Virus record (IMG/VR): IMGVR_UViG_3300035701_000006
Location: 71,267 to 135,266 of that record
Origin: a virus
Taxonomy: Duplodnaviria; Heunggongvirae; Uroviricota; Caudoviricetes
Strand: one strand, 5' to 3'
Length of the DNA stretch: 64,000 bases
In this document: positions 26,478 to 52,394 of the stretch, in pieces
Numbering within the stretch: position 1 is the first letter of the stretch
Layout of the letters: the number at the start of each line of letters is the position of its first letter
The notes under the pieces: model-generated
The model's database searches: none
The model's input: only the letters and a program-made list of their open reading frames with translations
Told to the model about the DNA's origin: nothing
Position numbers and translations under genes: made by a program

Positions 26478-26836
26478 TGGTGGACCCGGGGGGAATCGAA
26501 CCCCCGTCTCACAGAGTTTTTCCTGGCCGTCCACGCTCATCTCCGCCGTCTGCGATTTAGCGTCTTCCCGGCTATGACAGGCGGCCTACTTTACCGGGGA
26601 TCGACGGGCGATTTGTTTTCTCATCCCGTTTCGGCTCGCAATACCTCGGGACCAGCCGAGCATTAACGTCCCAAATCACTGACTATCGGCGTATGTCAGG
26701 CGGGACGGACCGCTTTACGCGGCCATGAGCACGGGCTCAGCAGTTGTGTTTGCCTGACATTTTTAACGAGGCCAAGTCAGGCGGTCCTCGGAGCGCAGGC
26801 TTCGGATTCCCTCCATGATCGATGCCGATCGGGCCC
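26478..26836 (-). ncRNA. ssrA: tmRNA (ssrA-like)
   Basis: tRNA-like ends GGGCCCG...GGGGGTTCGATTCCCCCCGGGTCCACCA; internal UUGGCCUCGUUAAAAAUG segment resembles the E. coli tmRNA pre-tag region; possible tag frame GCA AAC ACA ACU GCU GAG CCC GUG CUC AUG GCC GCG UAA (ANTTAEPVLMAA). Confidence 0.6.
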
Positions 26837-31011: not shown

Positions 31012-31089
31012 TGGTGCCCCCGGAGGGATTCGAACCCACACATTCCCAGGTTTGAGCTGGGCGACTCCTGCCAATTGGTCTACGAGGGC
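31012..31089 (-). tRNA. tRNA with anticodon CAA (Leu codon family), short variable arm
   Basis: acceptor GCCCTCG/CGGGGGC, anticodon stem CCCAG/CTGGG, loop CTCAAAC, T loop TTCGAAT, A73, CCA. Confidence 0.5.
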
Positions 31090-31412
31090 TAAAGGTCGTC
31101 GAGGGACGGAGAGTCAGGAATCCTGTCCTCTGCCATTGAGACAGAAAGGAGGCTGCCGATGCGCTCCATACGCCTTAGAGTGCCAGCGTTGGGCTGTTTT
31201 TGGGCAGCCAATTCCTCGCATTTCGCATTGCAACGACGCCAGAAGGCGGAAAGGTAGTATAAGCGGTAGGCCCAGATGGCGTTGGCGCAGGCAAAACCAG
31301 TAAGGCCCAACCACCATACTAAGCTCTCCAGTGGGCCTTTCCTGGAGAAGCAGCCGACAAACATGGCGACGCAACACAACAACTCGATTCTGGAGAACGT
31401 TTTTAACTTCAT
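31089..31412 (-). CDS. small membrane protein
   Basis: hydrophobic 107-aa ORF. Confidence 0.35.
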   Translation of the reverse strand: MKLKTFSRIELLCCVAMFVGCFSRKGPLESLVWWLGLTGFACANAIWAYRLYYLSAFWRRCNAKCEELAAQKQPNAGTLRRMERIGSLLSVSMAEDRIPDSPSLDDL

Positions 31413-31502
31413 CCCGTCATATCCTTATACAGACGCGGGCGGGCTAGGTGTCGAGATCATGTACACCGCTTGACACGATAGCCACCGCCCGCGCTTGTCG
31501 AC

Positions 31503-32480
31503 TTATTTCTTCTCCGCCGGTACGTGTAGATCCTTGAGGAGCGTACCGGGATCCAGGATAAAGTTCGATCCCGTGGGCATCATGATGACCTTGATGTCCT
31601 TGCCCAGTTCGTGAATCAGTGCGTACTGGAGCAGCGCCGGCGTGAGTGATGCCGACAGCTGCCTATTGGCCTCAGCTTCCTTTTCTGCCTTGGCCAACAT
31701 CGCCGCGCCTTCACCCTTTGCGCGTTCAACTGCCTGCATTGCTTTATTCGTCTCAATCTTAATCTTCTGCTCCTCCTCTAGCGACTTCTGAGAGGCGATC
31801 TGCTTTTGTTCGATCGCCTGCTCGAAGGCATCGGAGAAATCCACGTTGTCCAAGAGCAGATCCACGACCTCGATTGAATGAATCTTGAGCTCCGACTCCA
31901 ACCGAGTGGAGACCGCCTTGCGGATAATCTCGCGGTTTGGGGCGACCATGACCGACTCATACTTGACGATCTCGTCCTTGAAATTCTGGTAGACTCGGGG
32001 CTTCACGAGAACCTCGAAGAACGTCGCGCCGACCGTCCTGAATAACTGCTGAATGGCGTCCTTGGAAACGCGGATGTTAAGGGTGGCATCCACGTGGACC
32101 GTCTGGCTTTCCTTGGAGAAACAGGACAACTGCTTGAACACGTGGCTCTGGATCTGCGTGTTCTCGATCTTGGCGGATCGCCAGGGAAGGGTGAACTGCA
32201 ATCCCTCCTCCACCTGCCCTTTGATTGCGCCGAACTCGTAGATAACGCCGATGTGCCCGGTGGGGATCTGGTAGGCCGAGTAGGAGGCGGTGAGGAGGCC
32301 GAAGCTGGCCACGAGGAAGACCCAGCTTCCGATGCCAACCATCTGTCTGAGCTGCTTGTCCTTCTCGCCCATGGCCGCGATGAGGACGCGAGCGACGACG
32401 AACAACAGTACGATCAGACCAAACCAGACGAAGTAGCTCATACGCTCCTCCTTGAATTGGGGTCTGCCTTGAAGTACCAC
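31503..32480 (-). CDS. SPFH/band-7 (stomatin/prohibitin/HflK-like) membrane protein
   Basis: N-terminal TM helix, then an SPFH-like core and coiled-coil C-terminus. Confidence 0.65.
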   Translation of the reverse strand: MVLQGRPQFKEERMSYFVWFGLIVLLFVVARVLIAAMGEKDKQLRQMVGIGSWVFLVASFGLLTASYSAYQIPTGHIGVIYEFGAIKGQVEEGLQFTLPWRSAKIENTQIQSHVFKQLSCFSKESQTVHVDATLNIRVSKDAIQQLFRTVGATFFEVLVKPRVYQNFKDEIVKYESVMVAPNREIIRKAVSTRLESELKIHSIEVVDLLLDNVDFSDAFEQAIEQKQIASQKSLEEEQKIKIETNKAMQAVERAKGEGAAMLAKAEKEAEANRQLSASLTPALLQYALIHELGKDIKVIMMPTGSNFILDPGTLLKDLHVPAEKK

Positions 32481-32526
32481 AAGGTTGAGACCCAGTCAAT
32501 TCTTAAATACTGTTGTCGGAAGCCTT

Positions 32527-32612
32527 GGTACCCCCAGCAGGACTTGAACCTGCAAGCCTTTTGGGCGACGGATTAAGAGTCCGTTGTGGTTGCCACTACC
32601 ACGGTTGGGGGC
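32527..32612 (-). tRNA. tRNA-like, anticodon CUU (Lys) with extended variable arm
   Basis: acceptor GCCCCCA/TGGGGGT, anticodon stem ACGGA/TCCGT, loop CTCTTAA, 13-nt variable hairpin GCC-CAAAA-GGC, T arm GCAGG-TTCAAGT-CCTGC, CCA. Confidence 0.45.
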
Positions 32613-32642
32613 TCCAAGGCTTCCGTCAAAAGTAAATAAAAT

Positions 32643-33293
32643 ATGAAAAACAAAACAATTAATATTCGGTGCCACCAGTGCAAGAAATGGTTCAAGAAAG
32701 ACAGGCGGATGTATTGCAAAGCCAAGAAGCGCAAACGGGTTGGATTTTTCTGTTCTATTAAATGCCTCAAAGAATATCAATCTATTCTTTTCGCAACCAA
32801 TCCAAAAGAATCTCCGCACAAATGCTCTAGATGTGCGCACATGTTCAGAGGAAAATGCCGCCTTTGCAGATCGTGCAGGGAGTTATTCAAGATTTGTATC
32901 TTGTGCAAGCGTCTATTGCCGAAAGCTAAGTACAAAGACTCATTTTGTCCAGCATGCCGATCACAATATCAGACGAGTATTTGGATAAGAAAAAAAGTAA
33001 AGGCTATAAAGTATCTTGGAGGAATATGCAAGGATTGTCGGAAGATTGGGCCAAAAGACTATTATCTTTTGGATTTTCATCACAGGGATCGTAGAAAAAA
33101 GGATGTTGCTTGGAACAACATCAGGAAAAGATCATGGCCGAGGGTATTATTAGAGATTTCTAAATGCGATCTACTGTGTTCAAATTGCCACCGCCGCAGA
33201 CATCACAAGGAAGGAGGCTACTATATTGCTAACAGAAAACATGGGAAATTCATGGTGCCCCCGGCTGGAATCGAACCAGCTTCCCCGCTTTAA
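32643..33293 (+). CDS. HNH endonuclease (paralog of the 23143 gene)
   Basis: LDFHHRDRRKKD...CDLLCSNCHRRRHH plus multiple CxxC pairs. Confidence 0.55.
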   Translation: MKNKTINIRCHQCKKWFKKDRRMYCKAKKRKRVGFFCSIKCLKEYQSILFATNPKESPHKCSRCAHMFRGKCRLCRSCRELFKICILCKRLLPKAKYKDSFCPACRSQYQTSIWIRKKVKAIKYLGGICKDCRKIGPKDYYLLDFHHRDRRKKDVAWNNIRKRSWPRVLLEISKCDLLCSNCHRRRHHKEGGYYIANRKHGKFMVPPAGIEPASPL

Positions 33294-33327
33294 AAGAGCG
33301 GTACAGAGCCAATCTGTACACGGGGGC
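33253..33327 (-). tRNA. tRNA-Lys (UUU)
   Basis: acceptor GCCCCCG/CGGGGGC, D TACA/TGTA, anticodon stem CCGCT/AGCGG, loop CTTTTAA, T arm GCTGG-TTCGATT-CCAGC, CCA. Confidence 0.7.
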
Positions 33328-33642
33328 GTGTCTGAATCTGCATTTGCCATCGCGTTTCATCCGCGGCCTCCTTTCTTAAGAGTCTTTTCGTATGCGACGA
33401 TTTCTGGGGTAGTCATATCCAGGTCGAGCAATGCGTTAAGTGCTGCATTTCTGATGGCTTCTGCCTGAGTTCGTCCGACGCCGACGCCAGTTTTTGAACC
33501 AGGGTAAGGCCATGTGCCGAGCTCGAACCTTGCATGGCGTCCTATTCCGCAGCGGTCCAGATGGAGCTTCCAGCCGCGCTTCTTCATGGCGTCTACGATG
33601 GCGTGGGTGTAATAGTCTGCCATCTCTGCCGCCTCCTGATGA

Positions 33643-33718
33643 TGGTAGCCCGGACGGGAGTCGCACCCGTATCTCCAGGTTGAAGGCCTGGTATCCTACT
33701 GTTAGAATGGACCGGGCC
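33643..33718 (-). tRNA. tRNA-Glu (UUC)
   Basis: acceptor GGCCCGG/CCGGGCT, anticodon stem CCAGG/CCTGG, loop CCTTCAA (C33), T loop TGCGACT, CCA. Confidence 0.5.
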
Positions 33719-33719
33719 A

Positions 33720-33795
33720 TGGTAGCCTCGACCGGAATCGAACCGGCATTTTCGCCTTGAGAGGGCGATGTCCTGAACCGTTAGACGACGAGGCC
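33720..33795 (-). tRNA. tRNA-Glu (CUC)
   Basis: acceptor GGCCTCG/CGAGGCT, anticodon stem TCGCC/GGCGA, loop CTCTCAA, T loop TTCGATT, CCA. Confidence 0.6.
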
Positions 33796-34167
33796 GCAAA
33801 ATTATCTTATGAAGCTGTCCATGCTCTACGAAACCAAGCCGTACTCCGAAATGACGCCTCAGCAGCGAAGCAATGCCAAAGCTCAGAGAGCCAAGTCATA
33901 CAAATCGGACCGCAGGGAGAATGGTCGAGCTGCTTCTGGCTCCAATGAGACTAACACAAGGACTACCGCGAAATGGCGCGAGGCTAATCCTGGAATGTAC
34001 AGGGCCCAGGTCAAGGTGAACACCAGAGTCAAGTCGGGCGACCTCTCGCCGGTCGGATCGGGCAATGCTCGGCACCACCGTTCCTACAAAGGCAATGGCG
34101 GCGGAAAGTTCAAAGAAGTGCCCATCTCTACCAACGCCAAAAAGGCCAACGAGAAGAGATCCGGCGT

Positions 34168-34623
34168 ATGAGATTTGCACAACGGCTGGATGAAGCTCTC
34201 GGCACTCGACCCCTTTCACTATTAAAGGGGGCTCTCGTAGTTCCGGTCCCGAATCCCCGTGTGAACCTCCCCGAGAAAGGCCTCCAGATTCGCGGCGAAT
34301 ATCACATCACGATCCTAGAACCAGATGAGGTTGGCGATCTCCAGGACAGGAAAGGGTGGCGACCTGAACAGCTTGCTGAGAAATTCGTCGGTCAGGTCGT
34401 CCCAGGAGAGCCGAAATATGGCTGTCTTGGACGGCAGGTAGAGCCTGGAAAGGATGCTGATGATCCGAGCGCGAACGCAGTCTATTTCATCGTAGTGGAC
34501 TGGTCGGAGGCGCAGGATCTAAGGCATCGTCTTGGCTTCGAACCGACTGACCTACATGTCACCGTCGGATTTCGTCAGAAGGATATTCACGGCGTACCGA
34601 AGGACGCGTCGACTTGCCTCTAG
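34168..34623 (+). CDS. hypothetical protein (shares RLDEALG N-terminal motif with the 52585 ORF)
   Basis: 151-aa ORF. Confidence 0.35.
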   Translation: MRFAQRLDEALGTRPLSLLKGALVVPVPNPRVNLPEKGLQIRGEYHITILEPDEVGDLQDRKGWRPEQLAEKFVGQVVPGEPKYGCLGRQVEPGKDADDPSANAVYFIVVDWSEAQDLRHRLGFEPTDLHVTVGFRQKDIHGVPKDASTCL

Positions 34624-34795
34624 TCGTCATCCCGATCCGGCTGAGTTTCTTCGTCATCTGGCTCTTCAATCGCGCTTTCTATCTGCTCCTGAAGATTTAT
34701 CTTCTCCTTGCGGATGACAGGCTTACCTGCGCCCCACTTCATCATCCCTTTCCTACCCGCCTGCTTCAGGAACTTCTTGCCATAGGTGTTCTGGC

Positions 34796-35158
34796 TCATG
34801 GTTTATGCGCTCCAAATCCGTGTTCCACAAACCATTGAGTGAGATGCTTGTTCAGCCAGTCGTCGCCAGCACCCCATAATCCGATATCATGGCCGGCCTT
34901 CTGACTCTCGATGAACTTGTGGTTCATGATCTCGCACATGCCAAGCTCAAATATGTACACCTTGCGAGGATGGTCGTGTCCTATGAGGTCCAATAGCTTG
35001 TTGCCGACGTGTCTGTAGTCCGCTGCGTAGCGGTTGGCCCAGTCACAAGCGGCTTGATGCTCGGAGCACTGCCAGTTGTAGGTGATGCGAAGGAAGTCGA
35101 TGTGACGAAGGAGCTCACCCTTCTGCGCCAGGATGAATGCAATGGCTTCTATGTCCAT
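34796..35158 (-). CDS. hypothetical protein (possible phosphoesterase-like GHDH motif)
   Basis: LIGHDHP and GAGDDW motifs; weak. Confidence 0.3.
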   Translation of the reverse strand: MDIEAIAFILAQKGELLRHIDFLRITYNWQCSEHQAACDWANRYAADYRHVGNKLLDLIGHDHPRKVYIFELGMCEIMNHKFIESQKAGHDIGLWGAGDDWLNKHLTQWFVEHGFGAHKP

Positions 35159-35195
35159 GGGGCACCCTCGTAACTTTGAGGTGCCGTCTCGTGTG

Positions 35196-35270
35196 TGGTA
35201 CCCCCGGGAGGAGTTGCACCTCCACTACGAATTTAGAGGATTCGCAGGCTATCTATTACCGAACGGGGGC
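35196..35270 (-). tRNA. tRNA-Arg (UCU)
   Basis: acceptor GCCCCCG/CGGGGGT, anticodon stem CGAAT/ATTCG, loop CCTCTAA (C33), T arm GGAGG-TGCAACT-CCTCC, CCA. Confidence 0.5.
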
Positions 35271-35405
35271 GTGGAGCGATCGAACCCTCCTTGCCATCTT
35301 CAGGTGCTGACATCCCTGGCGCTTTAGGCCCTAGGTGCCGCACGCCCGAAGACGTTCAGCGTTGTGGCGGCTGTATAAGTAGCTCCGCCGACCTGAAGAT
35401 GGCGT
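35271..35405 (-). ncRNA. Y-RNA-like structured RNA candidate adjacent to rsr
   Basis: 12-bp terminal helix CCAUCUUCAGGU/ACCUGAAGAUGG (plus 35294-35305 with 35391-35402); internal UUCG hairpins; 3' T-arm mimic GGAG-GGUUCGAUCG-CUCC; lies immediately downstream of the TROVE gene. Confidence 0.45.
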
Positions 35406-35437
35406 GGAGGGTGGGTGATTGCTCACCCACCACTCCT

Positions 35438-37081
35438 TTACTCGCTGTCGGCCTTTTCCTTCCCGAACGTGTCCAGGTCGATCTTGCGGACTTCCTCGAC
35501 CTGGTTCGAAGTGCCGTTCACGACCAGCGGGATGTACCTGAGCACCGAGTCCGACCACCCACTGACGTAGTGAACGTCCGGGTAACCCGCCGGGGCGACC
35601 CAATCGCGGTACGGCGCGATGTTGATGAGCACGGCCTTGGCCTTCGGGCTGCGGGTGCGCTTGTACTTCTCCCACGCCGTAAGGAACCCGCTGCCGGCCC
35701 AGTCCTCGCTGTCCGTGATTCCGATGAACGTGTCGATCACGAGGCCGCGGTGTCCGAGGTACTCGATCGGAGCACCGAGGTTCGTCCCGCCGATCGCTAC
35801 GCCAATCTTGGCCGCGATGTCCATGATCGTCGAGCGGCGGCTGAGACCCTTGGTCAGGTCGGTCCTGACCCCGTTCTCGAACGGCAGAAGGATGACGTTC
35901 TCCTGCTTCTTGAACAGCGCCGCTCCGAACAGACCCGCGATGTCGCACATGCGTGTGCTGCCGCGGTCGGAAACCTGGCTGCTCATCGAGCCGGAGACGT
36001 CGTTCGAGATGCAGACGCGGCCCGGAAGAGTCTCGACGTTCTCGAAGCTCTGCTCGAGGGCATCCACGATGGCGTCCTTGACGGCCTGATGGCCCTGGAA
36101 CGCCTGGAACGCGTTGAAGAAGCGGAACGGGAACTGCTTGCTCTTGCGGACGTTCTCCTTGTCAGAGAGCTTGCCCGCAACCAGCTTGGCGACTGCGTCG
36201 TCCTTGAAGACGTCGTGCCGCTCCATCGTGGCGAGGTTCCGTAGGAGGGCCATGTACGGCATGCCCGCCAGCAGCGCCTTCCAGATGTTCACGGTCATCT
36301 TCTTGACGGACGGGACGACGACCTCCCACGGGAGGCGGTACTTCACGACGAGGTCGATGATCTGAGCCTCGTCGGTCGAGCGCTTGAGCGTCTCAAGTGC
36401 CCAGACGAGCGGATTGGTCGGAGAGGGACTGGCACCGACGCTCTGCCAACCCTTGACCAGCCATCCGAACAGCTCTTCCTGGGCGCGGTTGACAGGCCGG
36501 GGATGTGCCATCCGGATGATGTCGCGGAGCGTAATGTCTTCGGAGCGTGCCGAGCCGTACTTCACGGCGTGGTACTCCGAGATGTGCTGCAGCCAGCGCT
36601 TGACGGCATCCCGTGCCTCGCCGCCGAGACCCTTGCGGATCTCGCCCGTGCGGCAGAGCGACACGAACTCGCGCAGGTCGTCGGGGGTCTTGACAACGTG
36701 CTGGAAGGCCGCCCGGAAGTTAGTCTTCTTGGCGGTCTTCTCGTGCGCGGAGAGCACGGTGAGGCCCACGACGGGGGCCAGCTTCATGAGGCCCTTTGTG
36801 CGGGCGTAGACGAGGGCCTTCGCGAGGAAGGTGGGGTCCTTCTCCGCCATCTTGGTGATGACGTCCACCGTTTCCTTGGCGAGGGTCTTCTCGTCCGCGT
36901 AGAAGGTGTTCCCGAGCGTGTTGGTCGTGAGGACTGCGAGCGTGTCCTCTTCGATCGACCGGTCGAATGTGGGGAATCCCTCCTTGTTGAGCTTCGTGGC
37001 CTTCCGGTAGGTCTTGGAGATCTGAAGGCCCGTGCGGGGTGACGCCGGAGACGTGCCGAACAGCTTGCTTGCCCTGGCCAT
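35438..37081 (-). CDS. rsr: Ro60/Rsr ortholog (TROVE domain plus vWA domain)
   Basis: TTNTLGNTFYADEKTL resembles the TROVE GGxYYASExKL segment; C-terminal vWA with MIDAS motif DVSGSMSS; AGGAGG Shine-Dalgarno before ATG (MARASKLF). Confidence 0.75.
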   Translation of the reverse strand: MARASKLFGTSPASPRTGLQISKTYRKATKLNKEGFPTFDRSIEEDTLAVLTTNTLGNTFYADEKTLAKETVDVITKMAEKDPTFLAKALVYARTKGLMKLAPVVGLTVLSAHEKTAKKTNFRAAFQHVVKTPDDLREFVSLCRTGEIRKGLGGEARDAVKRWLQHISEYHAVKYGSARSEDITLRDIIRMAHPRPVNRAQEELFGWLVKGWQSVGASPSPTNPLVWALETLKRSTDEAQIIDLVVKYRLPWEVVVPSVKKMTVNIWKALLAGMPYMALLRNLATMERHDVFKDDAVAKLVAGKLSDKENVRKSKQFPFRFFNAFQAFQGHQAVKDAIVDALEQSFENVETLPGRVCISNDVSGSMSSQVSDRGSTRMCDIAGLFGAALFKKQENVILLPFENGVRTDLTKGLSRRSTIMDIAAKIGVAIGGTNLGAPIEYLGHRGLVIDTFIGITDSEDWAGSGFLTAWEKYKRTRSPKAKAVLINIAPYRDWVAPAGYPDVHYVSGWSDSVLRYIPLVVNGTSNQVEEVRKIDLDTFGKEKADSE

Positions 37082-37137
37082 TCTTGGCCCTCCTTGATGG
37101 AGCCGGGGCAAAAGCCCCAGCAGTTTCCTGGAACGTG

Positions 37138-37166
37138 ATTTTATCTCGCCTTGTCTCCTCAGTCAA
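37138..37166 (-). promoter_or_regulatory. sigma-70 promoter TTGACT-N17-TAAAAT on minus strand upstream of rsr
   Basis: reverse complement of 37161-37166 is TTGACT and of 37138-37143 is TAAAAT, 17-nt spacer. Confidence 0.5.
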
Positions 37167-37890
37167 GTATTCGCGGCCAGAAGACGAATAGGCCCCTGTC
37201 GTTCGGGAATATCTGCAACCTGAATCGATCGGCATGGACCTTTGCAAACTCATCTACTGCCGTGTGGACGCCGGATAGCGTGGCCCACATCTTTTCTTCG
37301 TGGAGGTGAAGGAGGTAGTCGTGTCCGCAGATGATTCCGTTCGGTTCTATTTTGGGAAGCCAAGCCTCGAGCTCCTCTTTCGTCTTCTCGTAAGTGTGAA
37401 GGGTGTCTATGAACAGGAGGCCGACCGATTCGTTCTGGAAGTCGGCAGAGGCCGCGGTGCTGTCCTTGGCGATGAACTTCCAGCCCCAGTTATCGATCCC
37501 AATGATTTCTTTCGCTCTTCCTTCGGCAGTCGGATCGGTGTCATAGCTGATAAGATATGGTGCACGTGTGTAGAAGTCGGGTGGAGTGGGTCCGCTCTTA
37601 TGCCAATGCCTCTCCAATGCCAGGAAGGCAGCCCCTGGCAGTTCGATGCTGTGCTTAGATCCGGCTAGGAGGGCGATTGTCGAATAGCCGTTTCCGACAC
37701 CAAGCTCGACTACCTGGCCCGGAGTCTGTTGGGCCAGGACGTAAAGAAGTGGAAGATGTGATGCGATGTCGAAGCCCTTTTGGGCATAAGGCTCGCCCAT
37801 CGCCCGGAACATCGCGTTGACGAGACCGTTCATAAAAGAAAGAAGAGTTCGGGGCTCGCACTTGCAGCCACTATCCTGGGAAGGTCCCAC
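37159..37890 (-). CDS. class I SAM-dependent O-methyltransferase (TylF/MycF-like)
   Basis: VVELGVGNGYSTIALL (motif I), FIDTLHTYE, GIICGHDY. Confidence 0.6.
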   Translation of the reverse strand: MGPSQDSGCKCEPRTLLSFMNGLVNAMFRAMGEPYAQKGFDIASHLPLLYVLAQQTPGQVVELGVGNGYSTIALLAGSKHSIELPGAAFLALERHWHKSGPTPPDFYTRAPYLISYDTDPTAEGRAKEIIGIDNWGWKFIAKDSTAASADFQNESVGLLFIDTLHTYEKTKEELEAWLPKIEPNGIICGHDYLLHLHEEKMWATLSGVHTAVDEFAKVHADRFRLQIFPNDRGLFVFWPRILD

Positions 37891-38145
37891 AGGTCAGGAC
37901 CCCCGCACCCGTTTCCGGGGCGGTCAGATTGTCGGTGGCTTTTGAGCAGCTTTCCGCTTTCCACTTTCAGCTCTGATGCGGCCCTGTCGGGCCGCAAGAA
38001 GCTTTAGCACTTTCAGCGGTCAGCTTTCACTGGTTTTCACCAGTCCATGGTAAGAGGATCCTTTCGGATCGCCCCTGATTTTCAACCTTTCGGTTGATCC
38101 CATGATTCTCCCACTTCGCTAGCCAAGCCCCGAACTCCATTTCTC

Positions 38146-38763
38146 CTAATCGGGGATCTCGATGGTCGTGGTCGCGTTGATGAGGCTGAGCTTCCCGTCC
38201 AGGTCGCCCAGCGTCTTCTGCAGGTCCTCCACCTCCTTGGCCAGCCCGGTCTCGCTCAGATGCAGGATGATATCCTCGGGGCTGGCCGACGCGCCCTCGG
38301 AGACGATCCGAGCACCCGCCCGGCGGGTCTGCGTCTTCAGCTGACCCACTGCGCTCATCAGGCCCTCGAGCAGGCTCTGCAGGTGCGGAGCAGCCTCTTT
38401 CCGCCAGGACAGCCAGTCCGCCATGGACCGGGACTTCCCGTTGACCACGACCACGGTCTCGTGGTTCTTCTTCTGGATGGCCCCGCGGATCTTCACGATC
38501 CGCTCCAGCAAGTCGGTGTGAGCCTGGCGCTCCCTGGCCACCACGACTTCGGACCCGCTTTCCTTGGCCAGCGGGTCCTTGATCTTCTCGGGCCGACCGA
38601 CGTTCCCCACGATGAACTGCCCCTTGGAGGCGACCCGCTTGAGGGTCGTCTTGATCTCCGCCAGCCCCTCCGTGATCGTTGTCTTCGCCATCGTCGTATC
38701 CTCCCTGTGAAGTCCTGTAAATCGTACCAGAGAGGTGGTATCACTGACGGGCTCGGTGGTCAA
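38146..38763 (-). CDS. hypothetical protein
   Basis: 205-aa ORF followed by GNRA hairpins. Confidence 0.45.
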   Translation of the reverse strand: MTTEPVSDTTSLVRFTGLHREDTTMAKTTITEGLAEIKTTLKRVASKGQFIVGNVGRPEKIKDPLAKESGSEVVVARERQAHTDLLERIVKIRGAIQKKNHETVVVVNGKSRSMADWLSWRKEAAPHLQSLLEGLMSAVGQLKTQTRRAGARIVSEGASASPEDIILHLSETGLAKEVEDLQKTLGDLDGKLSLINATTTIEIPD

Positions 38764-39468
38764 TCCCCGGCTTCGCGATCATGTCAGATTGTCACCACGA
38801 TTACACCGCTCTCCATTCGGACGACGATCTTTCCATGGCTAAACTCGACCTTGCGGACCTTTTGGTTTAGCCGTTCGACGGCTTGTATGATTGCCGCCCT
38901 AGCACCGTCACTTGGCGGCTTGTGGAGAAATGGCCTGATAGCCTTCTCTAGTTCGTTGCACATTCAGTAAGTCGTCGATTGGGGCAATTAGTGTTCAAGG
39001 GGTTGTCGCAGTGCCGTTTTTTGGTTTCATGAAGCAGGTCTTCTGCTTCAATCCCCCGCTCCGTACATCGGCCTGGACGCCACGACGTTCATCCAGTCTC
39101 GGAGCTTTTTGTTCATTGGCTGTGAGTGAAGTATCCTCGAACGGCAGCCCCAATTGTTCTTATGTACTTTTGGCCAGATATTCACGGACCAAATGTTCGA
39201 ATCTCTTACCCCTAGTGGGGCCGGGCGGCAGCTTCGAAATGTCGTATACCATCGTATCGACCCATCTCACGTCTTCGTGCATTCCATTGGACTTCAGAGC
39301 CTTCTTTGCAATGGCGCGGGCCTCTTCCTTCGACTCTGCCCTTACGCAAGCGCTACGCCATCCGTCCGTGTGGTACCAGGATAGCCTCTGATGAGGGTAT
39401 TTCTTGAGTTTGAAGATGACTAGGAAGGCTTGCATATTTGGCCCGCCCGAAGGCGGTTGATTTTAGAT

Positions 39469-39645
39469 GGGGCAATTTGTGGCCAAGGTTTCTGCCGCAG
39501 TAACACGGTTTGGGACCCTTTCGGATCGCCAAACCACGTCATTGCCCCGTTGGTCTTGGACTTGCGCCCAAGCCGATGTTGGCGTCTGCGGTCGCCCTGC
39601 CAACATCCGGAGCTCAGAATGGAAGTAACCTCGACCGGCAGCCCC
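39469..39645 (-). ncRNA. structured RNA unit f of the conserved-terminal-helix family
   Basis: 3' motif CCUUGGCCACAAAUUGCCCC pairs with 5' motif GGGGCUGCCGGUCGAGGUUACUUC; internal GNRA hairpin GAUCC-GAAA-GGGUC. Confidence 0.5.
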
Positions 39646-39689
39646 AAAAACAAATTTTAGCACATCAACCCCCGCGGGTCAAGTATTGG

Positions 39690-39764
39690 TGGCTCCCCCA
39701 GGAGGACTCGAACCTCCATTACTCGGGTAACAACCGAGTCGCCTACCAATTGGCGGACAGGGGA
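39690..39764 (-). tRNA. tRNA-Asn (GUU)
   Basis: acceptor TCCCCTG/TGGGGGA, D CGCC/GGCG, anticodon stem CTCGG/CCGAG, loop TTGTTAC, T arm GGAGG-TTCGAGT-CCTCC, CCA. Confidence 0.65.
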
Positions 39765-39765
39765 A

Positions 39766-39840
39766 TGGAGCCGACGGTGGGATTCGCACCCACGTTCTCC
39801 TGCTTACGGGGCAGGTGCATGGCTTCTATGCTACGTCGGC
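39766..39840 (-). tRNA. tRNA-Thr (CGU)
   Basis: acceptor GCCGACG/CGTCGGC, D GCAT/ATGC, anticodon stem CCTGC/GCAGG, loop CCCGTAA (C33), T arm GTGGG-TGCGAAT-CCCAC, CCA. Confidence 0.55.
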
Positions 39841-39856
39841 GTCGAAAAGGCTCGAA

Positions 39857-40531
39857 CTATCGGAGTGTGCGCAGGATGTCGTCAAGTTTGTCCTGGAAGG
39901 TAAGGTTCAGGCCCTCGGGCCACTTGGACATATCCGGCATCTCCGGTTTTATCCAACCGGTGGACCGGTCCCACACCTTTAACCACTCGTGGAAGCACCC
40001 ATGCTCGCCTATCTCATCAGCGACGCGGATGTTGACTGACTCTGCTGGGAGTGAATCGCCCTCATATACGGCGGTCTCGATGCCCGATCTTGCTACGTCG
40101 GTGAGCATCGGTCGGATGCGGTTCCTTCTTATGAGGTCCTGTTTGAATTTGGCAAACTCCTTGTCCCGAACGGGTTCCTTTCCTCCCAGTTCCCTCACCT
40201 TGGTCTCGTACTCCCGTACGGCCTCCACAGGAAAGCGGTTGCCCGGCTCATGCATTGCCAGCAGGTTGACTGAGTCCTCATCAGATAGGAGCGCGTCGGG
40301 CTCCACCAGGACCTCAATCAACGCGGGCTCTGTCCCTTCCTGCAACCATTCGTCAATCGAATCAGCCGCGCAGTATTGAAGTGAACTTTCCCCGCTGAAC
40401 TTCCTGTTCCTGAATAGGTAGATTCCCTCGCCGGATGCCTGGCCCCTCTTAAGGGTATCGCGCCTGAGCCCGCTGCGTATGATGTCCTTGACCCTGTCGA
40501 TACTGGTAATGTGGCTCCAGGATTCAATCAT
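39857..40531 (-). CDS. hypothetical protein
   Basis: 224-aa ORF. Confidence 0.4.
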   Translation of the reverse strand: MIESWSHITSIDRVKDIIRSGLRRDTLKRGQASGEGIYLFRNRKFSGESSLQYCAADSIDEWLQEGTEPALIEVLVEPDALLSDEDSVNLLAMHEPGNRFPVEAVREYETKVRELGGKEPVRDKEFAKFKQDLIRRNRIRPMLTDVARSGIETAVYEGDSLPAESVNIRVADEIGEHGCFHEWLKVWDRSTGWIKPEMPDMSKWPEGLNLTFQDKLDDILRTLR

Positions 40532-40548
40532 ATCCTAGGTTTGATTGC

Positions 40549-40624
40549 TGGAGGGCGCAGCCGGAGTCGCACCGGCCTACATCCGATTTGCAATCGGAGG
40601 CATTTGCTGCTCTGCCATACGCCC
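40549..40624 (-). tRNA. tRNA-Cys (GCA)
   Basis: acceptor GGGCGTA/TGCGCCC, anticodon stem TCCGA/TCGGA, loop TTGCAAA, T arm GCCGG-TGCGACT-CCGGC, CCA. Confidence 0.6.
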
Positions 40625-40695
40625 CGAGAGTGCTGCCGGTTTCCTCCGGCTTGGGGAACTCCGTCCTACGACTTTCGCCGAGCACTCGTATTTGT

Positions 40696-40785
40696 TGGCG
40701 GAGGACGGGGGAATCGGACCCCCACCGGTTTTCACCGGATGCGTTTAGCAAACGCACGCGACAAACCAGTATTCGCCTGTCCTCC
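40696..40785 (-). tRNA. tRNA-Ser (GCU), type II
   Basis: acceptor GGAGGAC/GTCCTCC, anticodon stem TGCGT/ACGCA, loop TTGCTAA, variable hairpin CCGGT-GAAA-ACCGG, T arm GGGGG-TCCGATT-CCCCC, CCA. Confidence 0.7.
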
Positions 40786-40870
40786 TGGCGGAAAGCCGGG
40801 GAGTCGAACCCCGAAGCCTCATCGGCTCTCGACCTCCAATCGAGTGGGCTTGCCAATGCCCAAGCTTTCC
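40786..40870 (-). tRNA. tRNA-Ser (GGA), type II
   Basis: acceptor GGAAAGC/GCTTTCC, D GGGC/GCCC, anticodon stem CTCGA/TCGAG, loop TTGGAGG, variable hairpin, T arm CGGGG-TTCGACT-CCCCG, CCA. Confidence 0.7.
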
Positions 40871-40885
40871 GTAGTAGATAATTCA

Positions 40886-41527
40886 ATGGACATCTCTATT
40901 ATCATCCCGACTTGCGGTCGGAAGACCCTAGCCCGCACCCTCCAAAGCCTCCAACTGGCAGGCTTCGAGTCCGGCGACGAGGTAATCGTCGTGGGCGACG
41001 GACCTCAGCCGATCGCGGCTGATATCTGCCGGACGTTCAAGCCGTACATGGACATTAAATATTTCGAGCACGGCCCGACCTGCTGCTTCGGGAACGCCCA
41101 ACGCGACGTCGGCATGCGCAAGGCCGTTAAGAGCCTGCTTGCGTTCATGGACGATGACGACGAATACATACAAGGATCGCTCAACGTCATGCGGGCCTAT
41201 GCCGGACAGAATCCTGGGAAGGTACTCGTCTTCCAGATGTACCACAGGTCAGTCGGCCTTATCTGGAATGAGAAGGTCTTCAAGGAAGGGCAGGTTGGGA
41301 CCCAGACGGTTGTGCTGCCCAACATCCAATCGCAGCTGTCTGCATGGACTTGCGAACAGGATCCGGAACGCGACTATATGGGCGATTTCTATTTCTTCCG
41401 CCGAACGATCGACAAATGGCCGGGTAAGGACGCCGAGCTCGTCTGGGTGCCCGTCCCAATAGCCGTCCACCGCATGTCCTGGGTCCAGTCCGAAATCGTC
41501 GGAGAATGGAAACCCATTCAAAAGTGA
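40886..41527 (+). CDS. family-2 glycosyltransferase
   Basis: DISIIIPTCGR and DEVIVVGDG motifs typical of GT-A/GT2. Confidence 0.6.
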   Translation: MDISIIIPTCGRKTLARTLQSLQLAGFESGDEVIVVGDGPQPIAADICRTFKPYMDIKYFEHGPTCCFGNAQRDVGMRKAVKSLLAFMDDDDEYIQGSLNVMRAYAGQNPGKVLVFQMYHRSVGLIWNEKVFKEGQVGTQTVVLPNIQSQLSAWTCEQDPERDYMGDFYFFRRTIDKWPGKDAELVWVPVPIAVHRMSWVQSEIVGEWKPIQK

Positions 41528-48664: not shown

Positions 48665-48670
48665 GGATGC

Positions 48671-48775
48671 GGGCAATTGGCGATCAAGGTACCGGCCTTT
48701 CGGCCTTTCACGGGGAGTCGAGGGCCTTTCGGCCCATCTACTCTGGAATGTGAAGTAACCTCGATCTAGCAGCCC
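48671..48775 (-). ncRNA. structured RNA unit a of conserved-terminal-helix family (two GGCC-GAAA-GGCC hairpins inside)
   Basis: 5' GGGCUGCUAGAUCGAGGUUACUUC pairs with 3' CCUUGAUCGCCAAUUGCCC. Confidence 0.55.
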
Positions 48776-48783
48776 GCGAATAT

Positions 48784-48860: not shown

Positions 48861-48870
48861 TTTTCATAAT

Positions 48871-48996
48871 GGGGCAATTGGCGAACAAGGATCTTTTAGC
48901 GTGCTGCTGTTACACTACTGACGGCTTTCGCCGTCAGCCGGGAGTTGCACCCGGACCACTCACTTTGCAGGTGAAGGAACCTCGTTCTGCAGCCCC
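48871..48996 (-). ncRNA. structured RNA unit b: permuted tRNA-Cys-like core inside conserved terminal helix
   Basis: between the terminal motifs: anticodon arm UUCAC-CUGCAAA-GUGAG, T arm CCGGG-UGCAACU-CCCGG, acceptor strands CUGACGG and CCGUCAG joined by a GAAA tetraloop, then D arm GUGU-AACAGCA-GCAC. Confidence 0.55.
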
Positions 48997-49004
48997 GAAA
49001 TATT

Positions 49005-49671: not shown

Positions 49672-49916
49672 GCTATTTCTGCTGGGCTTTTGCCCAGGTC
49701 GTTGTTGGACATGCTCGTCGGAAATTCCACCCCTGGTCGTCCCGACCTCGGACGACCGTCTGGATGCCACGGCTGCCTGGGGACTGATTTTCCGACGAGC
49801 TGTATCACCACCGCGCCGCAGCTCATAAATTCCTTACGCTCACGTCTCGTTCATATTTCTTCCATAGCATTTTCGCGCTAAATGCTACGGGTTGGTGGTA
49901 TGGTGAGGGCAATTCG

Positions 49917-50037
49917 AGACCAAGGATATTGTCGCGATTTCACCAGCGCCCCCGTTGGGTCGAACCGGTCCGCGACGTACCGGCACGGGGTCAGGAATCG
50001 AACCTGTTGACCATGAAGTAACCTCGGTCAGCAGCCC
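49917..50037 (-). ncRNA. structured RNA unit c of conserved-terminal-helix family (degenerate tRNA-like core)
   Basis: 5' GGGCUGCUGACCGAGGUUACUUC pairs with 3' CCUUGGUCUCGAAUUGCCC; internal T-loop-like UUCGAUU and UUCGACC elements. Confidence 0.5.
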
Positions 50038-50213
50038 TCAAGATTTCTTACGCCGGAAATAACGGTGTTTGTGGACCGAATGCGCTGGCGTGTATCCGAT
50101 GCTCAGAGCTTTGTGATGTTTCGGAGGGTCGCCTGGCGGGTCGCTGCCGTAGAAGACGTCTCCTTTCTTGATGATCTCGTTTGGTCTCAGTTTGCGCCAG
50201 CCTTTTCTGGTCT

Positions 50214-52133: not shown

Positions 52134-52137
52134 GTAT

Positions 52138-52216
52138 GGGGCAATTGGCGATCAAGGAGACTGGCCTTTCGGCCGTTCATTGCCAAAGAATGAAGTAACC
52201 TCGATCTAGCAGCCCC
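52138..52216 (-). ncRNA. structured RNA unit d (minimal: anticodon-arm-like hairpin plus GNRA hairpin inside conserved terminal helix)
   Basis: 5' GGGGCUGCUAGAUCGAGGUUACUUC, hairpin UUCAUU-CUUUGGC-AAUGAA, GGCC-GAAA-GGCC, 3' CCUUGAUCGCCAAUUGCCCC. Confidence 0.5.
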
Positions 52217-52261
52217 AATATTTGTGGGAGCGCGTCTCCGCGCTCAACCGAATGTAGGTGA

Positions 52262-52388
52262 GGGCAATTGGCGAACAAGGCTCCTGTTTGGTGCTCTACC
52301 AATTGAGCTACCGGGCCGTAGTGGCCCAGGTGGGACTCGAACCCACAACCACCCGATTATGATTCGAAGTAACCTCGTTCTGCAGCCC
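52262..52388 (-). ncRNA. structured RNA unit e: permuted tRNA-Met-like core inside conserved terminal helix
   Basis: anticodon arm UUCGA-AUCAUAA-UCGGG, T arm GUGGG-UUCGAGU-CCCAC, acceptor strands CUGGGCC and GGCCCGG joined by a 5-nt loop, D arm GCUC-AAUUGGUA-GAGC, all between the two conserved terminal motifs. Confidence 0.55.
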
Positions 52389-52394
52389 TCAATT

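What the first reader, a model, noticed from the sequence alone, without database searches (positions are those of the whole stretch)
35271..37166. Ro60/Rsr ortholog with consensus promoter and an adjacent Y-RNA-like element
A 548-aa TROVE plus vWA protein (MIDAS motif DVSGSM) is preceded by TTGACT-N17-TAAAAT and AGGAGG. Immediately 3' of it lies a structured region with a 12-bp terminal helix, UUCG-capped hairpins and a T-arm mimic (GGAG-GGUUCGAUCG-CUCC). These are hallmarks of bacterial Y RNAs, which are usually encoded next to rsr.

No RtcB ligase is visible nearby, so the operon context differs from the bacterial rtcBA-rsr arrangement.
Basis: partly seen in the sequence, partly recalled or inferred. 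Interest (0 to 1): 0.7.

Follow-up and report, generated by a model that had tools for sequence, protein, structure and literature searches.

The report
Phage Ro60 gene; Y RNAs lie elsewhere
The gene is a genuine phage copy of the Ro60 RNA-binding protein, but the folded RNA just after it is not its Y RNA partner: it is the structured tail of the Ro60 message running into a tRNA gene, and the likely Y RNAs are at least seven genes elsewhere in the same tRNA cluster.

Summary
The protein call is right. Window 37081..35438 (minus strand) encodes a 547-aa TROVE + Ro60-type vWA protein with a DVSGS MIDAS motif. A TTGACT-N17-TAAAAT promoter-like site and an AAGGAGG ribosome-binding site precede it.

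The Y RNA call for 35437..35271 ("X") fails.
- X is strongly structured (z = -8.3), but Rfam YrlA and Y_RNA give no match.
- It has no CGAA/GNCGAA motif, no D arm and no T-AS-D order.
- Its "T arm" has G.G where tRNAs and YrlA have G53-C61.
- It has no counterpart next to rsr in 16 related phage loci.

Only its first 31 nt, a GGAG...CUCC hairpin, recur: 15 of 16 relatives have such a hairpin after rsr. The remaining 129-nt long-stem element is unique to this phage. It is most likely a 3' end protection or processing structure in an rsr-tRNA co-transcript (inferred).

The likely Y RNAs are a seven-member family on the same strand at 39.0-39.6, 48.7-50.0 and 52.1-52.4 kb. They share a covarying closing module that aligns to that of YrlA. 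Two carry the tRNA-like domain (Rfam YrlA 54 bits). In relatives, up to six copies sit in tandem just upstream of rsr.

The parts
35438..37081 (-). rsr: Ro60 ortholog, 547 aa, with TROVE ring, Ro60-type vWA domain and DVSGS MIDAS motif
   Evidence: Pfam TROVE 6.7e-24 and vWA_Ro60 9e-11. PDB Ro60/Rsr/phage Ro60 chains match at 2e-22 to 2e-18. M1 aligns with the start of 27 homologues.
37138..37166 (-). sigma-70-like promoter site TTGACT-N17-TAAAAT upstream of rsr, overlapping the end of the methyltransferase gene
   Evidence: 10/12 match. A consensus match only; transcription was not shown.
37089..37120 (-). rsr 5' UTR: hairpin CUGGGGCUUUUGCCCCGG (37120..37103) followed by AAGGAGG (37095..37089), 7 nt before the ATG
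   Evidence: Sequence. An equivalent hairpin plus Shine-Dalgarno site precedes rsr in 12 relatives, compared by eye only.
   Evidence: 15 of 16 relatives have a hairpin of -20 to -40 kcal/mol 0-25 nt after the rsr stop. Most have a purine-rich GGGAGG-type 5' arm and a CCUCCC-type 3' arm, and none has a U tract.
35284..35412 (-). lineage-specific long-stem element: 7 bp, a 2x2 internal loop and 13 bp enclosing an 85-nt branched tip. Its outer 7 bp compete with the base of the post-rsr hairpin.
   Evidence: Inverted repeat with 20 of 22 positions paired. The two folds are -91.9 and -90.7 kcal/mol. A single-sequence covariance model found no second copy in 258 kb. No blastn or nhmmer hit in relatives or in 50,697 phage records.
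35273..35290 (-).
   Evidence: 4-bp stem with G.G at the 53:61 position and 11% ensemble probability. It looks like a diverged short copy of the base of the post-rsr hairpin. Both end in the 9-nt direct repeat CUCCACGCC.
35196..35270 (-). tRNA-Arg(UCU) with encoded CCA, starting 2 nt after the element
   Evidence: ARAGORN. Rfam tRNA 41.6 bits. The same tRNA is found in most relatives' arrays.
39468..39646 (-). Y7: Y-like RNA, 179 nt, no tRNA-like domain, 2.4 kb upstream of rsr. A promoter-like site TTGACC-N17-TAAAAT (39682..39654) ends 8 nt before it.
   Evidence: 5' and 3' closing motifs found. P1 and P2 are intact. The R1 model aligned it only partly, 15.4 bits and E 0.26, because of the large insert. 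Promoter site.
38980..39152 (-). Y6: Y-like RNA, 173 nt, 1.9 kb upstream of rsr
   Evidence: R1 matches the 5' part at 17.9 bits, E 0.066. The 3' motif CUAAUUGCCCC lies at 38991..38981. P1 and P2 pair.
48669..48777 (-). Y2: Y-like RNA, 109 nt, with two GAAA-capped hairpins
   Evidence: R1 55.6 bits, E 4.9e-11.
48870..48997 (-). Y4: YrlA-like RNA with T arm (CCGGG-UGCAACU-CCCGG), acceptor-like stem and D arm
   Evidence: R1 38.5 bits. Domain order read from the sequence and fold.
49905..50039 (-). Y5: Y-like RNA, 135 nt, with a T-arm-like hairpin
   Evidence: R1 35.6 bits, E 3.3e-6; sequence.
52137..52217 (-). Y1: minimal Y-like RNA, 81 nt (closing module plus one GAAA hairpin)
   Evidence: R1 83.4 bits, but Y1 is one of the 12 sequences the model was built from.
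52260..52390 (-). Y3: YrlA-like RNA with a full T-AS-D tRNA-like domain
   Evidence: Rfam RF02553 YrlA at 54.1 bits, E 6e-12, model positions 1-114 of 114, below the gathering score of 69. R1 42.3 bits. blastn hits in unannotated DNA of phages CcrColossus, CcrPW, Sixama and BRock.
34168..34623 (+). 2H-SAK phosphoesterase gene, an RNA-repair-type enzyme, on the opposite strand
   Evidence: Pfam PF22547 4.4e-20.
37159..37890 (-). Methyltransf_24 gene directly upstream of rsr
   Evidence: Pfam 2.9e-17.

Best explanation
**Shown**
- Window 37081..35438 encodes a divergent Ro60/Rsr protein of a large tRNA-rich phage. The gene sits inside the phage's tRNA array, all on one strand.
- The 167 nt after it are not a Y RNA of the YrlA kind.
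- They consist of two parts. The first is a stable hairpin that follows rsr in nearly all relatives. The second is a 129-nt long-stem element found only in this phage.
- tRNA-Arg(UCU) follows 2 nt later, with no terminator-like or promoter-like site in between.
- The phage carries a family of at least seven Y-like RNAs elsewhere on the same strand.
- These share a covarying closing module: a 6-bp P1, a CUGC(U)A / GCCAAUUG internal loop, an 8-bp P2 with an invariant G.U pair, then UUAC. This module aligns position for position with the closing module of Rfam YrlA.
- The inserts vary. In Y3 and Y4 the insert is the T arm / acceptor-like stem / D arm domain of YrlA.

**Inferred**
- rsr, the structured tail and tRNA-Arg are made as one transcript.
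- RNase P cuts at the tRNA 5' end. This leaves an rsr mRNA whose last nucleotides are locked in helix, so 3' exonucleases are held off.
- The 20-bp stem with its 2x2 internal loop may also be an RNase III-type processing site.
- Ro60 binds the shared closing module of the Y-like RNAs. Their different inserts tether it to different host partners, such as PNPase or tRNA-recognising enzymes.
For: **Protein.**

**X is real but unique.**

**X fails the Y RNA tests.**
- No Rfam YrlA or Y_RNA match at E <= 10 in 35100-35520 or 31000-41500.
- The same model finds a known mycobacteriophage YrlA at 31.4 bits, a relative's copy at 30.3 bits and Y3 at 54.1 bits.
- No CGAA or GNCGA[AG] motif.
- The family model R1 does not hit X at E <= 10.

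**The hairpin is conserved.** It is present in 15 of 16 relatives.

**Read-through is likely.** tRNA-Arg abuts X, and the scan places no promoter-like or terminator-like site in 35196-35437.

**The Y-like family is real.**
- 47 copies form 98% standard pairs, against 44-51% when partners are slid.
- 117 cells show changes on both sides, against 27 in shuffles.
- One G.U pair is kept in 47 of 47 copies. The alignment was fitted to the model.
- All 53 hits in relatives are on the rsr strand. Up to six are tandem copies ending about 50 nt before rsr.
Against: - The function proposed for X is inference only. There are no expression or end-mapping data.
- The 85-nt branched tip is more elaborate than a simple stabiliser or RNase III site needs.
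- Because X has no homologue, its structure cannot be tested by covariation.
- Ro60 binding to the Y-like family is inferred from homology to YrlA and from linkage to rsr. It was not shown.
- Y3 scores below Rfam's gathering threshold (54 against 69).
- The two copies nearest rsr (Y6, Y7) lack the tRNA-like domain and score weakly with R1, because their inserts are large.
- The YrlA-like copies (Y3, Y4) lie 11.8-15.3 kb from rsr, outside the 4-kb rule used by Chen et al. 2014 (PMC4201824).
Confidence: 0.62

Rival explanations
1. One reading: X is a lineage-specific Y RNA or Ro60 ligand. Its long stem would be the Ro60-binding helix and the T-loop-like hairpin a tRNA-mimic module.
For: - X is on the same strand as rsr and immediately 3' of it, as yrlA and yrlB are in Salmonella (own knowledge).
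- It is very stable (z = -8.3).
- It has a long stem with an internal loop and contains GGUUCGAUC.
- The closest relative, L043, also has a closed-stem multi-hairpin element after rsr, and that one carries GACGAAG.
Against: - No Rfam YrlA or Y_RNA match.
- No CGAA motif.
- The T-like hairpin lacks the G53-C61 pair, lies outside the closing stem and has 11% probability.
- There is no D arm and no acceptor-like stem.
- X is not conserved in 16 relatives.
- The phage already has seven RNAs with the YrlA closing module, which X lacks.
Confidence: 0.08
2. X downstream of the conserved hairpin is a functionless scar. It would be a leftover of the rearrangement that placed the rsr cassette between tRNA-Asn and tRNA-Arg(UCU), possibly with a decayed T arm of a lost tRNA or Y RNA.
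For: - Gene order differs from relatives. They have Y array - rsr - hairpin - Cys - Thr - Asn - Arg(UCU). The window has Cys - Thr - Asn - ... - rsr - X - Arg(UCU).
- A 9-nt direct repeat, CUCCACGCC, brackets the extra segment.
- The T-like string resembles a short copy of the hairpin base.
- X is unique to this phage.
Against: - A perfect 13-bp helix within 20 of 22 paired positions, and z = -8.3, are unexpected for decaying sequence.
- The tRNA model finds nothing in X at E <= 10.
- The sequence is identical in three assemblies, although these may all be the same phage.
Confidence: 0.22
3. The post-rsr hairpin is a factor-independent terminator without a U tail. In that case rsr is monocistronic, and the long-stem element belongs to a separate downstream transcript with tRNA-Arg.
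For: The hairpin is strong, GC-rich and positionally conserved right after the stop codon in 15 of 16 relatives.
Against: - No copy has a U tract.
- No promoter-like site lies between the hairpin and the tRNA.
- In relatives, tRNAs follow within 10-30 nt.
Confidence: 0.08

Closest known systems
Ro60/Rsr proteins: X. laevis Ro60 (PDB 1YVP), D. radiodurans Rsr (2NVO), Thermus phage phiLo Ro60 (9KOP), and the 'Ro-like RNA binding proteins' of actinophages
   Same: The TROVE plus Ro60-type vWA architecture and the MIDAS motif. Full-length similarity to solved Ro60 structures. 410 phage records encode a homologue.
   Different: At most 29% identical to any phage record, the best being Myxococcus phage Mx1. 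It scores far below the NCBIfam Rsr equivalog cut-off, 88 against 900 bits. It is embedded in a tRNA array rather than an rtcBA operon.
YrlA and YrlB, the bacterial and phage Y RNAs (Chen et al. 2014, PMC4201824; Rfam RF02553)
   Same: **For Y1-Y7, not for X.** They share the closing module (P1, internal loop with UGC and A-UUG, P2, then YUAY). Y3 and Y4 carry the T / acceptor-like stem / D domain. They are on the rsr strand and sit next to rsr in relatives. The short copies lack the tRNA-like domain, as YrlB does.
   Different: - Seven or more copies per genome, against one to a few.
- The motif is NCGAGG rather than GNCGAAN0-1G. The known mycobacteriophage Tonenili YrlA has the same G variant.
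- All copies score below Rfam's gathering threshold.
- In this window the YrlA-like copies are 11.8-15.3 kb from rsr.
- X shares none of these features.
Yrl1 and Yrl2 of Thermus phage phiLo (Hu et al. 2025, PMC12135203)
   Same: Phage-encoded Y-like RNAs near a phage Ro60, with a 5'-3' stem flanking a bulge. They are proposed to recruit or modulate host PNPase.
   Different: The phiLo RNAs were picked by their CGAA motif just upstream of the gene. Here the family was defined by covariation over 47 copies and by alignment to the YrlA model. X lies 3' of the gene and has no CGAA.
Intercistronic RNase III processing hairpins and 3' stabiliser hairpins of phage polycistronic transcripts, such as T7 R1.1 (own knowledge)
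   Same: For X: a stem of about 20 bp interrupted by a small internal loop. It lies between an mRNA and the next gene in a co-oriented cluster. Processing would leave a hairpin at the upstream mRNA's 3' end.
   Different: X has an 85-nt branched tip instead of a simple loop. No cleavage data exist. This is a resemblance only.

Membership tests
Ro60/Rsr (the protein) | TROVE (HEAT-repeat ring) domain | tested here: met
   PF05731 at 6.7e-24, 85 bits against a cut-off of 23.
Ro60/Rsr (the protein) | C-terminal Ro60-type vWA domain with a MIDAS DxSxS motif | tested here: met
   PF25045 at 9e-11. DVSGS is in the translation. D361, S363 and S365 are invariant in 28 homologues.
Ro60/Rsr (the protein) | Near full-length similarity to structurally solved Ro60 proteins | tested here: met
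   9NEN, 1YVP, 2NVO, 9KOP and 9L5Y match at E 2e-22 to 2e-18 over residues about 32-518.
Ro60/Rsr (the protein) | NCBIfam Rsr equivalog score | tested here: not met
   NF041674 at 88 bits against a cut-off of 900. The protein is a divergent ortholog.
YrlA-type Y RNA (element X, 35437..35271) | Match to the Rfam YrlA or Y_RNA covariance models | tested here: not met
   No hit at E <= 10. Positive controls reach 30-54 bits.
YrlA-type Y RNA (element X, 35437..35271) | GNCGAAN0-1G (CGAA) motif near the 5' end | tested here: not met
   No CGAA, GNCGAA or GNCGAG in X or its flanks.
YrlA-type Y RNA (element X, 35437..35271) | tRNA-like domain in the order V, T arm, acceptor-like stem, D arm, enclosed by the 5'/3' stem | tested here: not met
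   There is only a T-loop-like string. It lies outside and 3' of the closing stem, has G.G at 53:61 and 11% probability, and no D arm or acceptor-like stem is present.
YrlA-type Y RNA (element X, 35437..35271) | Same strand as rsr and within 4 kb of it | tested here: met
   X starts 1 nt after the stop codon on the same strand.
YrlA-type Y RNA (element X, 35437..35271) | Conserved next to rsr in related genomes | tested here: not met
   Absent from 16 relatives with 53-70% identical Ro60; only the first hairpin recurs.
YrlA-type Y RNA (Y3 at 52390..52260 and Y4 at 48997..48870) | Closing stem, YUAY and T-AS-D domain | tested here: met
   For Y3, the full-length alignment to RF02553 shows every element. 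For Y4, the order was read from sequence and fold only.
YrlA-type Y RNA (Y3 at 52390..52260 and Y4 at 48997..48870) | Rfam gathering score (69 bits) | tested here: not met
   Y3 scores 54.1 bits. Y4 is not reported at E <= 1. A published phage YrlA scores only 31.4 bits.
YrlA-type Y RNA (Y3 at 52390..52260 and Y4 at 48997..48870) | GNCGAAN0-1G motif | tested here: inconclusive
   Both have AACGAGG. Across the family the motif is NCGAGG, one base off. The Tonenili YrlA has GCCGAG.
YrlA-type Y RNA (Y3 at 52390..52260 and Y4 at 48997..48870) | Within 4 kb of rsr on the same strand | tested here: not met
   Same strand, but 11.8-15.3 kb away in this window. The related copies Y6 and Y7 are 1.9-2.4 kb away. 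In relatives the family abuts rsr.
YrlA-type Y RNA (Y3 at 52390..52260 and Y4 at 48997..48870) | Bound by Ro60 | not testable with these tools
   Needs RIP or EMSA.
tRNA or pseudo-tRNA (element X) | Cloverleaf recognised by ARAGORN or Rfam tRNA | tested here: not met
   Nothing at default settings or with introns allowed. Only a 93-nt 'tRNA-Phe(aaa)' with 3 acceptor mismatches appears at relaxed thresholds. No Rfam tRNA hit in X at E <= 10.
Intrinsic terminator (post-rsr hairpin) | GC-rich hairpin followed by a U tract | tested here: not met
   The hairpin is present but no copy has a U tract.
Retron-type msr-msd ncRNA (element X) | Reverse transcriptase gene adjacent to an ncRNA closed by inverted repeats | tested here: not met
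   X is flanked by rsr and tRNA-Arg. The only RT found in the window is 25 kb away.

The most novel reading that the evidence does not exclude
This phage clade may carry a toolkit of modular Y RNAs: nine or more in this window on two conserved scaffolds, and up to six in tandem before rsr in relatives. One Ro60-binding module would be combined with interchangeable effector inserts (tRNA-like domains, GNRA hairpins, long branched inserts). A single phage Ro60 could then be directed to several host targets during infection, alongside the phage's own tRNA set, tmRNA and RNA-repair enzymes. On this reading X could be a third, singleton scaffold, or a Ro60-regulated feature of the rsr mRNA itself.
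Probability: 0.25. Interest if true: 0.7.

Novelty: new variant of a known kind. Interest (0 to 1): 0.42.

Why it matters
Phage Ro60 genes and phage YrlA RNAs are already described (Chen et al. 2014; Hu et al. 2025; Iyer et al. 2021). The gene itself is therefore an ordinary new member of a known family.

The useful results are two.
- A correction: a very stable fold with a T-loop-like string next to rsr is not enough to call a Y RNA. In a tRNA array such strings are common, and the neighbouring tRNA was overlooked.
- A lead: this uncultivated phage clade has an unusually large, covarying, modular family of Y-like RNAs tied to rsr. All copies share one putative Ro60-binding module but carry different inserts.

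That is a natural experiment on what Y RNA effector modules do, a question still open for bacterial and phage Ro60. The shared module, with its invariant G.U pair, gives a concrete target for binding studies.

Tried and rejected
1. **X as a tRNA, intron-bearing tRNA or tmRNA piece.** ARAGORN with introns and relaxed thresholds gave only implausible models.
2. **X as any Rfam family.** Only noise came back at E <= 10: ftsZ-DE, CRISPR-DR23 and PrrB.
3. **Homologues of X.**
   - blastn and nhmmer against 53 fetched loci: none.
   - A single-sequence covariance model over 258 kb: none.
   - blastn against 50,697 phage records: none.
   - An exact-arm pattern in IMG/VR: none.
   - Paralogues in the window: none.
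4. **X as a mobile insertion with a target-site duplication.** The 9-nt repeat CUCCACGCC is there. The inverted repeat is not terminal to it, and a 9-mer repeat within 167 nt is only borderline significant. Left open.
5. **An 11-nt identity between the hairpin end and the tRNA-Cys/tRNA-Thr junction of L001.** It is expected by chance given the search space. Rejected.
6. **Short similarities between X and the type-2 scaffold** (AUACAGC, CCACAACG). blastn did not report them. Rejected.
7. **Megablast of the locus against phages:** no match. A single-protein scan of IMG/VR also found none.
8. **Pattern scans for the Y-like 5' motif.**
   - The strict pattern found nothing because it was too strict; it missed a known copy.
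   - The looser pattern gave 108 hits in bacterial and archaeal genomes. About 70 are expected by chance, and none of the 100 loci tested with R1 contained the RNA.
   - This says little about cellular distribution.
Full report
**1. What is at the coordinates**

The finding lies on the minus strand.
- An ORF runs from 37111 (TTG) or 37081 (ATG) to the stop at 35440..35438.
- The ATG has AAGGAGG 7 nt upstream. M1 aligns with the start of 27 homologues.
- Pfam gives TROVE (6.7e-24) and the Ro60-specific vWA domain (9e-11).
- The DVSGS MIDAS motif is present. Its D and both S residues are invariant in the family alignment.
- The sequence matches solved Ro60 structures from human or frog, Deinococcus Rsr and Thermus phage phiLo at E 2e-22 to 2e-18 over nearly its full length.
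- It is a divergent member. It is at most 29% identical to any of the 410 phage records that encode a homologue. It also scores far below NCBI's Rsr equivalog cut-off, 88 against 900 bits.
- TTGACT-N17-TAAAAT sits at 37166..37138, a 10/12 match. It is one of the two best sites in an 8-kb scan that found 7 sites against 2.9 +/- 1.6 in shuffles.

**2. The element after the gene (X, 35437..35271)**

X is real and strongly structured.
- Its minimum free energy is -91.9 kcal/mol, z = -8.26, and none of 200 shuffles folds as well.
- It is identical in two other public assemblies, so it is not an assembly artefact.

Its anatomy has three pieces.
- **(a) A 13-bp hairpin with one bulged U:** GGAGUGGUGGGUGA-GCAA-UCACCCACCCUCC, at 35436..35406.
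- **(b) A long stem:** 7 bp, a 2x2 internal loop and a perfect 13 bp (20 of 22 positions paired), enclosing an 85-nt branched tip.
- **(c) The string GGAGGGUUCGAUCGCUCC** at 35290..35273.

Two folds are nearly isoenergetic, -91.9 and -90.7 kcal/mol. In the favoured one (89% of the ensemble), the halves of (c) pair with the outer parts of hairpin (a). The 'T arm' itself forms in only 11%.

As a T arm, (c) has a 4-bp stem and G.G at the position of the universally conserved G53-C61 pair. The single UUCG is not predicted to cap a hairpin (probability about 0). The heptamer GGTTCGA occurs 13 more times in the window outside tRNAs and the Y-like RNAs.

A tRNA-Arg(UCU) gene at 35270..35196 begins 2 nt after (c). 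The whole region is a one-strand array of 42 tRNA genes plus a tmRNA gene.

**3. Is X a Y RNA?**

Rfam contains YrlA (RF02553), so I first checked that the model works on phage sequences.
- It finds the published type of YrlA upstream of the Ro gene of mycobacteriophage Tonenili at 31.4 bits.
- It finds nothing in X, or anywhere in 31000-41500, at E <= 10.

I then took the defining features from Chen et al. 2014 (PMC4201824). X fails these:
- No GNCGAAN0-1G, and no CGAA at all.
- No V / T / acceptor-like stem / D order.
- No D arm.
- The T-like string lies outside the closing stem.

The only feature X meets is position: same strand and adjacent to rsr.

**4. Relatives**

The protein has hundreds of metagenomic homologues at 45-70% identity. 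I fetched their loci. One is a 266-kb IMG/VR viral genome. Others lie on contigs of 100-111 kb.

In nearly all of the closer relatives (53-70% identity), rsr again sits inside a tRNA array on the same strand. None contains X by blastn, by nhmmer, or by a covariance model built from X. X has no match in 50,697 phage records either.

What does recur is piece (a).
- 15 of 16 relatives have a hairpin of -20 to -40 kcal/mol starting 0-25 nt after the rsr stop codon.
- Most have a purine-rich GGGAGG-type 5' arm, a CCUCCC-type 3' arm and a tetraloop. None has a U tract.
- A tRNA usually follows within 10-30 nt.

**5. Where the Y RNAs are**

Reading the DNA upstream of rsr in the relatives showed tandem copies of a conserved element:

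5'-GGGGCUGC(U)AG-NUCGAGG-UUACUUC ... variable insert ... CCUUGNNC-GCCAAUYGCCCC-3'

An alignment of 12 short copies gave a consensus fold with covariation. From it I built model R1.

- **In relatives:** R1 finds 53 copies, all on the rsr strand. Up to six are tandem copies ending about 50 nt before the rsr start.
- **In the window:** it finds five clear copies and partial matches to two with large inserts. Their closing motifs and pairings were confirmed separately.

| Copy | Coordinates (minus strand) |
|---|---|
| Y1 | 52217..52137 |
| Y2 | 48777..48669 |
| Y3 | 52390..52260 |
| Y4 | 48997..48870 |
| Y5 | 50039..49905 |
| Y6 | 39152..38980 |
| Y7 | 39646..39468 |

Over 47 aligned copies:
- 98% of cells form standard pairs, against 44-51% when partners are slid by 1-3 columns.
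- 117 cells show changes on both sides, against 27 +/- 6 in shuffles.
- 13 of 19 pairs have double changes.
- One G.U pair in P2 is kept in 47 of 47 copies.
- The alignment was fitted to the model, so these counts lean towards it. The slid controls are nevertheless far lower.

Y3 and Y4 carry a T arm, an acceptor-like stem-loop and a D arm in YrlA order. Y3 aligns to Rfam YrlA over all 114 model positions at 54.1 bits, E 6e-12. That is below the gathering score of 69 but well above the known phage control.

That alignment also shows the family's closing module matching YrlA's closing module element by element: P1, a CUGCA / GCCAAUUG internal loop, P2, then UUAC. The family motif NCGAGG is one base off GNCGAAG. 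The known Tonenili YrlA has the same G variant.

Y3's tRNA-like core hits unannotated DNA in Ro60-encoding phages, including CcrColossus. CcrColossus is cited as a phage with Ro60 and Y RNAs (PMC12135203).

A copy in relative L007 also hits YrlA full length at 30.3 bits. None of these copies overlaps a tandem tRNA pair, the false-positive source that Chen et al. warn about.

So the phage does encode YrlA-like and YrlB-like RNAs. Y6 and Y7 lie 1.9-2.4 kb upstream of rsr. Y7 has a TTGACC-N17-TAAAAT site ending 8 nt before its first base. The others lie among the tRNAs.

**6. What X most likely is (inferred)**

The gene order differs between this phage and its relatives.
- Relatives: Y array - rsr - hairpin - tRNA-Cys - Thr - Asn - Arg(UCU).
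- This phage: Cys - Thr - Asn - [Y7, Y6, three ORFs, a methyltransferase] - rsr - hairpin - extra 129 nt - Arg(UCU).

X therefore sits at the 3' junction of a relocated rsr cassette. A 9-nt direct repeat, CUCCACGCC, brackets the extra segment. Piece (c) looks like a diverged short copy of the hairpin base.

The scan finds no promoter-like or terminator-like site between rsr and tRNA-Arg. The simplest model is a co-transcript.
- RNase P cleavage at the tRNA 5' end would leave an rsr mRNA whose last 2 nt follow a helix. That end is a poor substrate for 3' exonucleases.
- The 20-bp stem with an internal loop also resembles phage RNase III processing sites (own knowledge).

Other long closed stems exist in this genome. 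One extends the acceptor stem of tRNA-Lys(CUU). Another precedes a reverse transcriptase gene. This fits a genome in which long closed stems are common, though it does not show processing.

I cannot exclude that the extra segment is a functionless scar (22%), or a private Ro60 ligand (8%).

**7. Context**

- A 2H-SAK phosphoesterase (4.4e-20) lies 0.8 kb away on the other strand. A Methyltransf_24 gene is directly upstream of rsr.
- No RtcB was found among the ORFs of 300 aa or more that I scanned.
- Ro/TROVE proteins in a subset of jumbo phages, in an RNA-repair context, are already noted in the literature (PMC7824862).

**8. Verdict**

- The Ro60 gene is a new, divergent member of a known kind.
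- The adjacent 'Y RNA' is a misassignment.
- The real partner candidates are a large modular Y-like family elsewhere in the window. This is a new variant of a known system and a reasonable lead for experiment.

Interest is moderate. Nothing here overturns what is known. The copy number, the modular inserts on one conserved closing module, and the tight linkage to rsr in relatives go beyond what the papers read here describe.

Noticed in passing
window 51159-51271 (-) and 49702-49809 (-): A second scaffold type. Two RNAs share the flanks GGUGAUACAGC...CAUGUCCAACAA but have different inserts. The first has a T arm, a long acceptor-like stem and a D arm, and gives a weak Rfam YrlA match (19.9 bits, E 0.94). 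The second has a 15-bp closing helix around 58 nt. Neither was found in the fetched parts of relatives.
   Followed up: partly
window 9716-9879 (+) with ORF 9856-11334 (+): A 164-nt element closed by a 21-bp, 95% complementary stem lies directly upstream of, and overlaps the start of, a reverse transcriptase gene. The RT matches RVT_1 at 5e-19, is closest to PADLOC RT_UG17 and UG26, and resembles group II RTs. This looks like an RT with its own structured ncRNA. Relatives L045 and L052 carry a similar RT about 2-3 kb upstream of rsr.
   Followed up: partly
window 32496-32646 (-): tRNA-Lys(CUU) at 32612..32526 is enclosed by 41-nt arms that are 78% complementary. They extend its acceptor stem into a long leader/trailer helix, which could be a processing stem.
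   Followed up: no
window 37103-37120 (-) and relatives L001-L053 just upstream of rsr: A small hairpin (CUGGGGCUUUUGCCCCGG in the window) lies about 10-30 nt before the rsr Shine-Dalgarno site. It recurs with varied sequence in 12 relatives. It may be a 5' UTR regulatory or stabilising element. It was compared by eye only.
   Followed up: partly
L043 2652-2749: The closest relative (70% identical Ro60) lacks the usual post-rsr hairpin. It has instead a 97-nt element closed by an 11-bp helix (UUGUGUAAUCG / CGAUUGCACAA). The element contains GACGAAG, which matches GNCGAAN0-1G, and sits right before a tRNA. It is unrelated in sequence to X.
   Followed up: partly
L045 5743-5847: A tRNA-like gene with an insertion of about 35 nt in its middle (Rfam tRNA 37.8 bits). 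It lies between tRNA-Cys and tRNA-Thr, just downstream of rsr.
   Followed up: no
window 26478-26836 (-) and 20658-20732 (+): There is a phage tmRNA gene (97 bits, tag AEPVLMAA). There is also a lone plus-strand tRNA with anticodon CUA, which ARAGORN calls 'Pyl' and which would read the amber stop codon UAG. The window holds 42 tRNA genes in all.
   Followed up: no
window tRNA/Y-RNA array and relatives: A short AU-rich spacer (AAUAUUC, AAAAUU or AAAUCUUC) precedes most tRNAs and Y-like RNAs. It may be a processing signal. The 5' arm of X's 13-bp helix contains the same AUCUUCA spacer motif seen after the hairpin in L040 and L005.
   Followed up: no
window 34168-34623 (+), 31503-32480 (-), 21068-22291 (+), 54552-57605 (+): Accessory genes: a 2H-SAK phosphoesterase, a Band_7/SPFH protein, a nicotinate phosphoribosyltransferase, and a 1017-aa ORF carrying an intein with a LAGLIDADG endonuclease plus a Calx-beta domain.
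   Followed up: no
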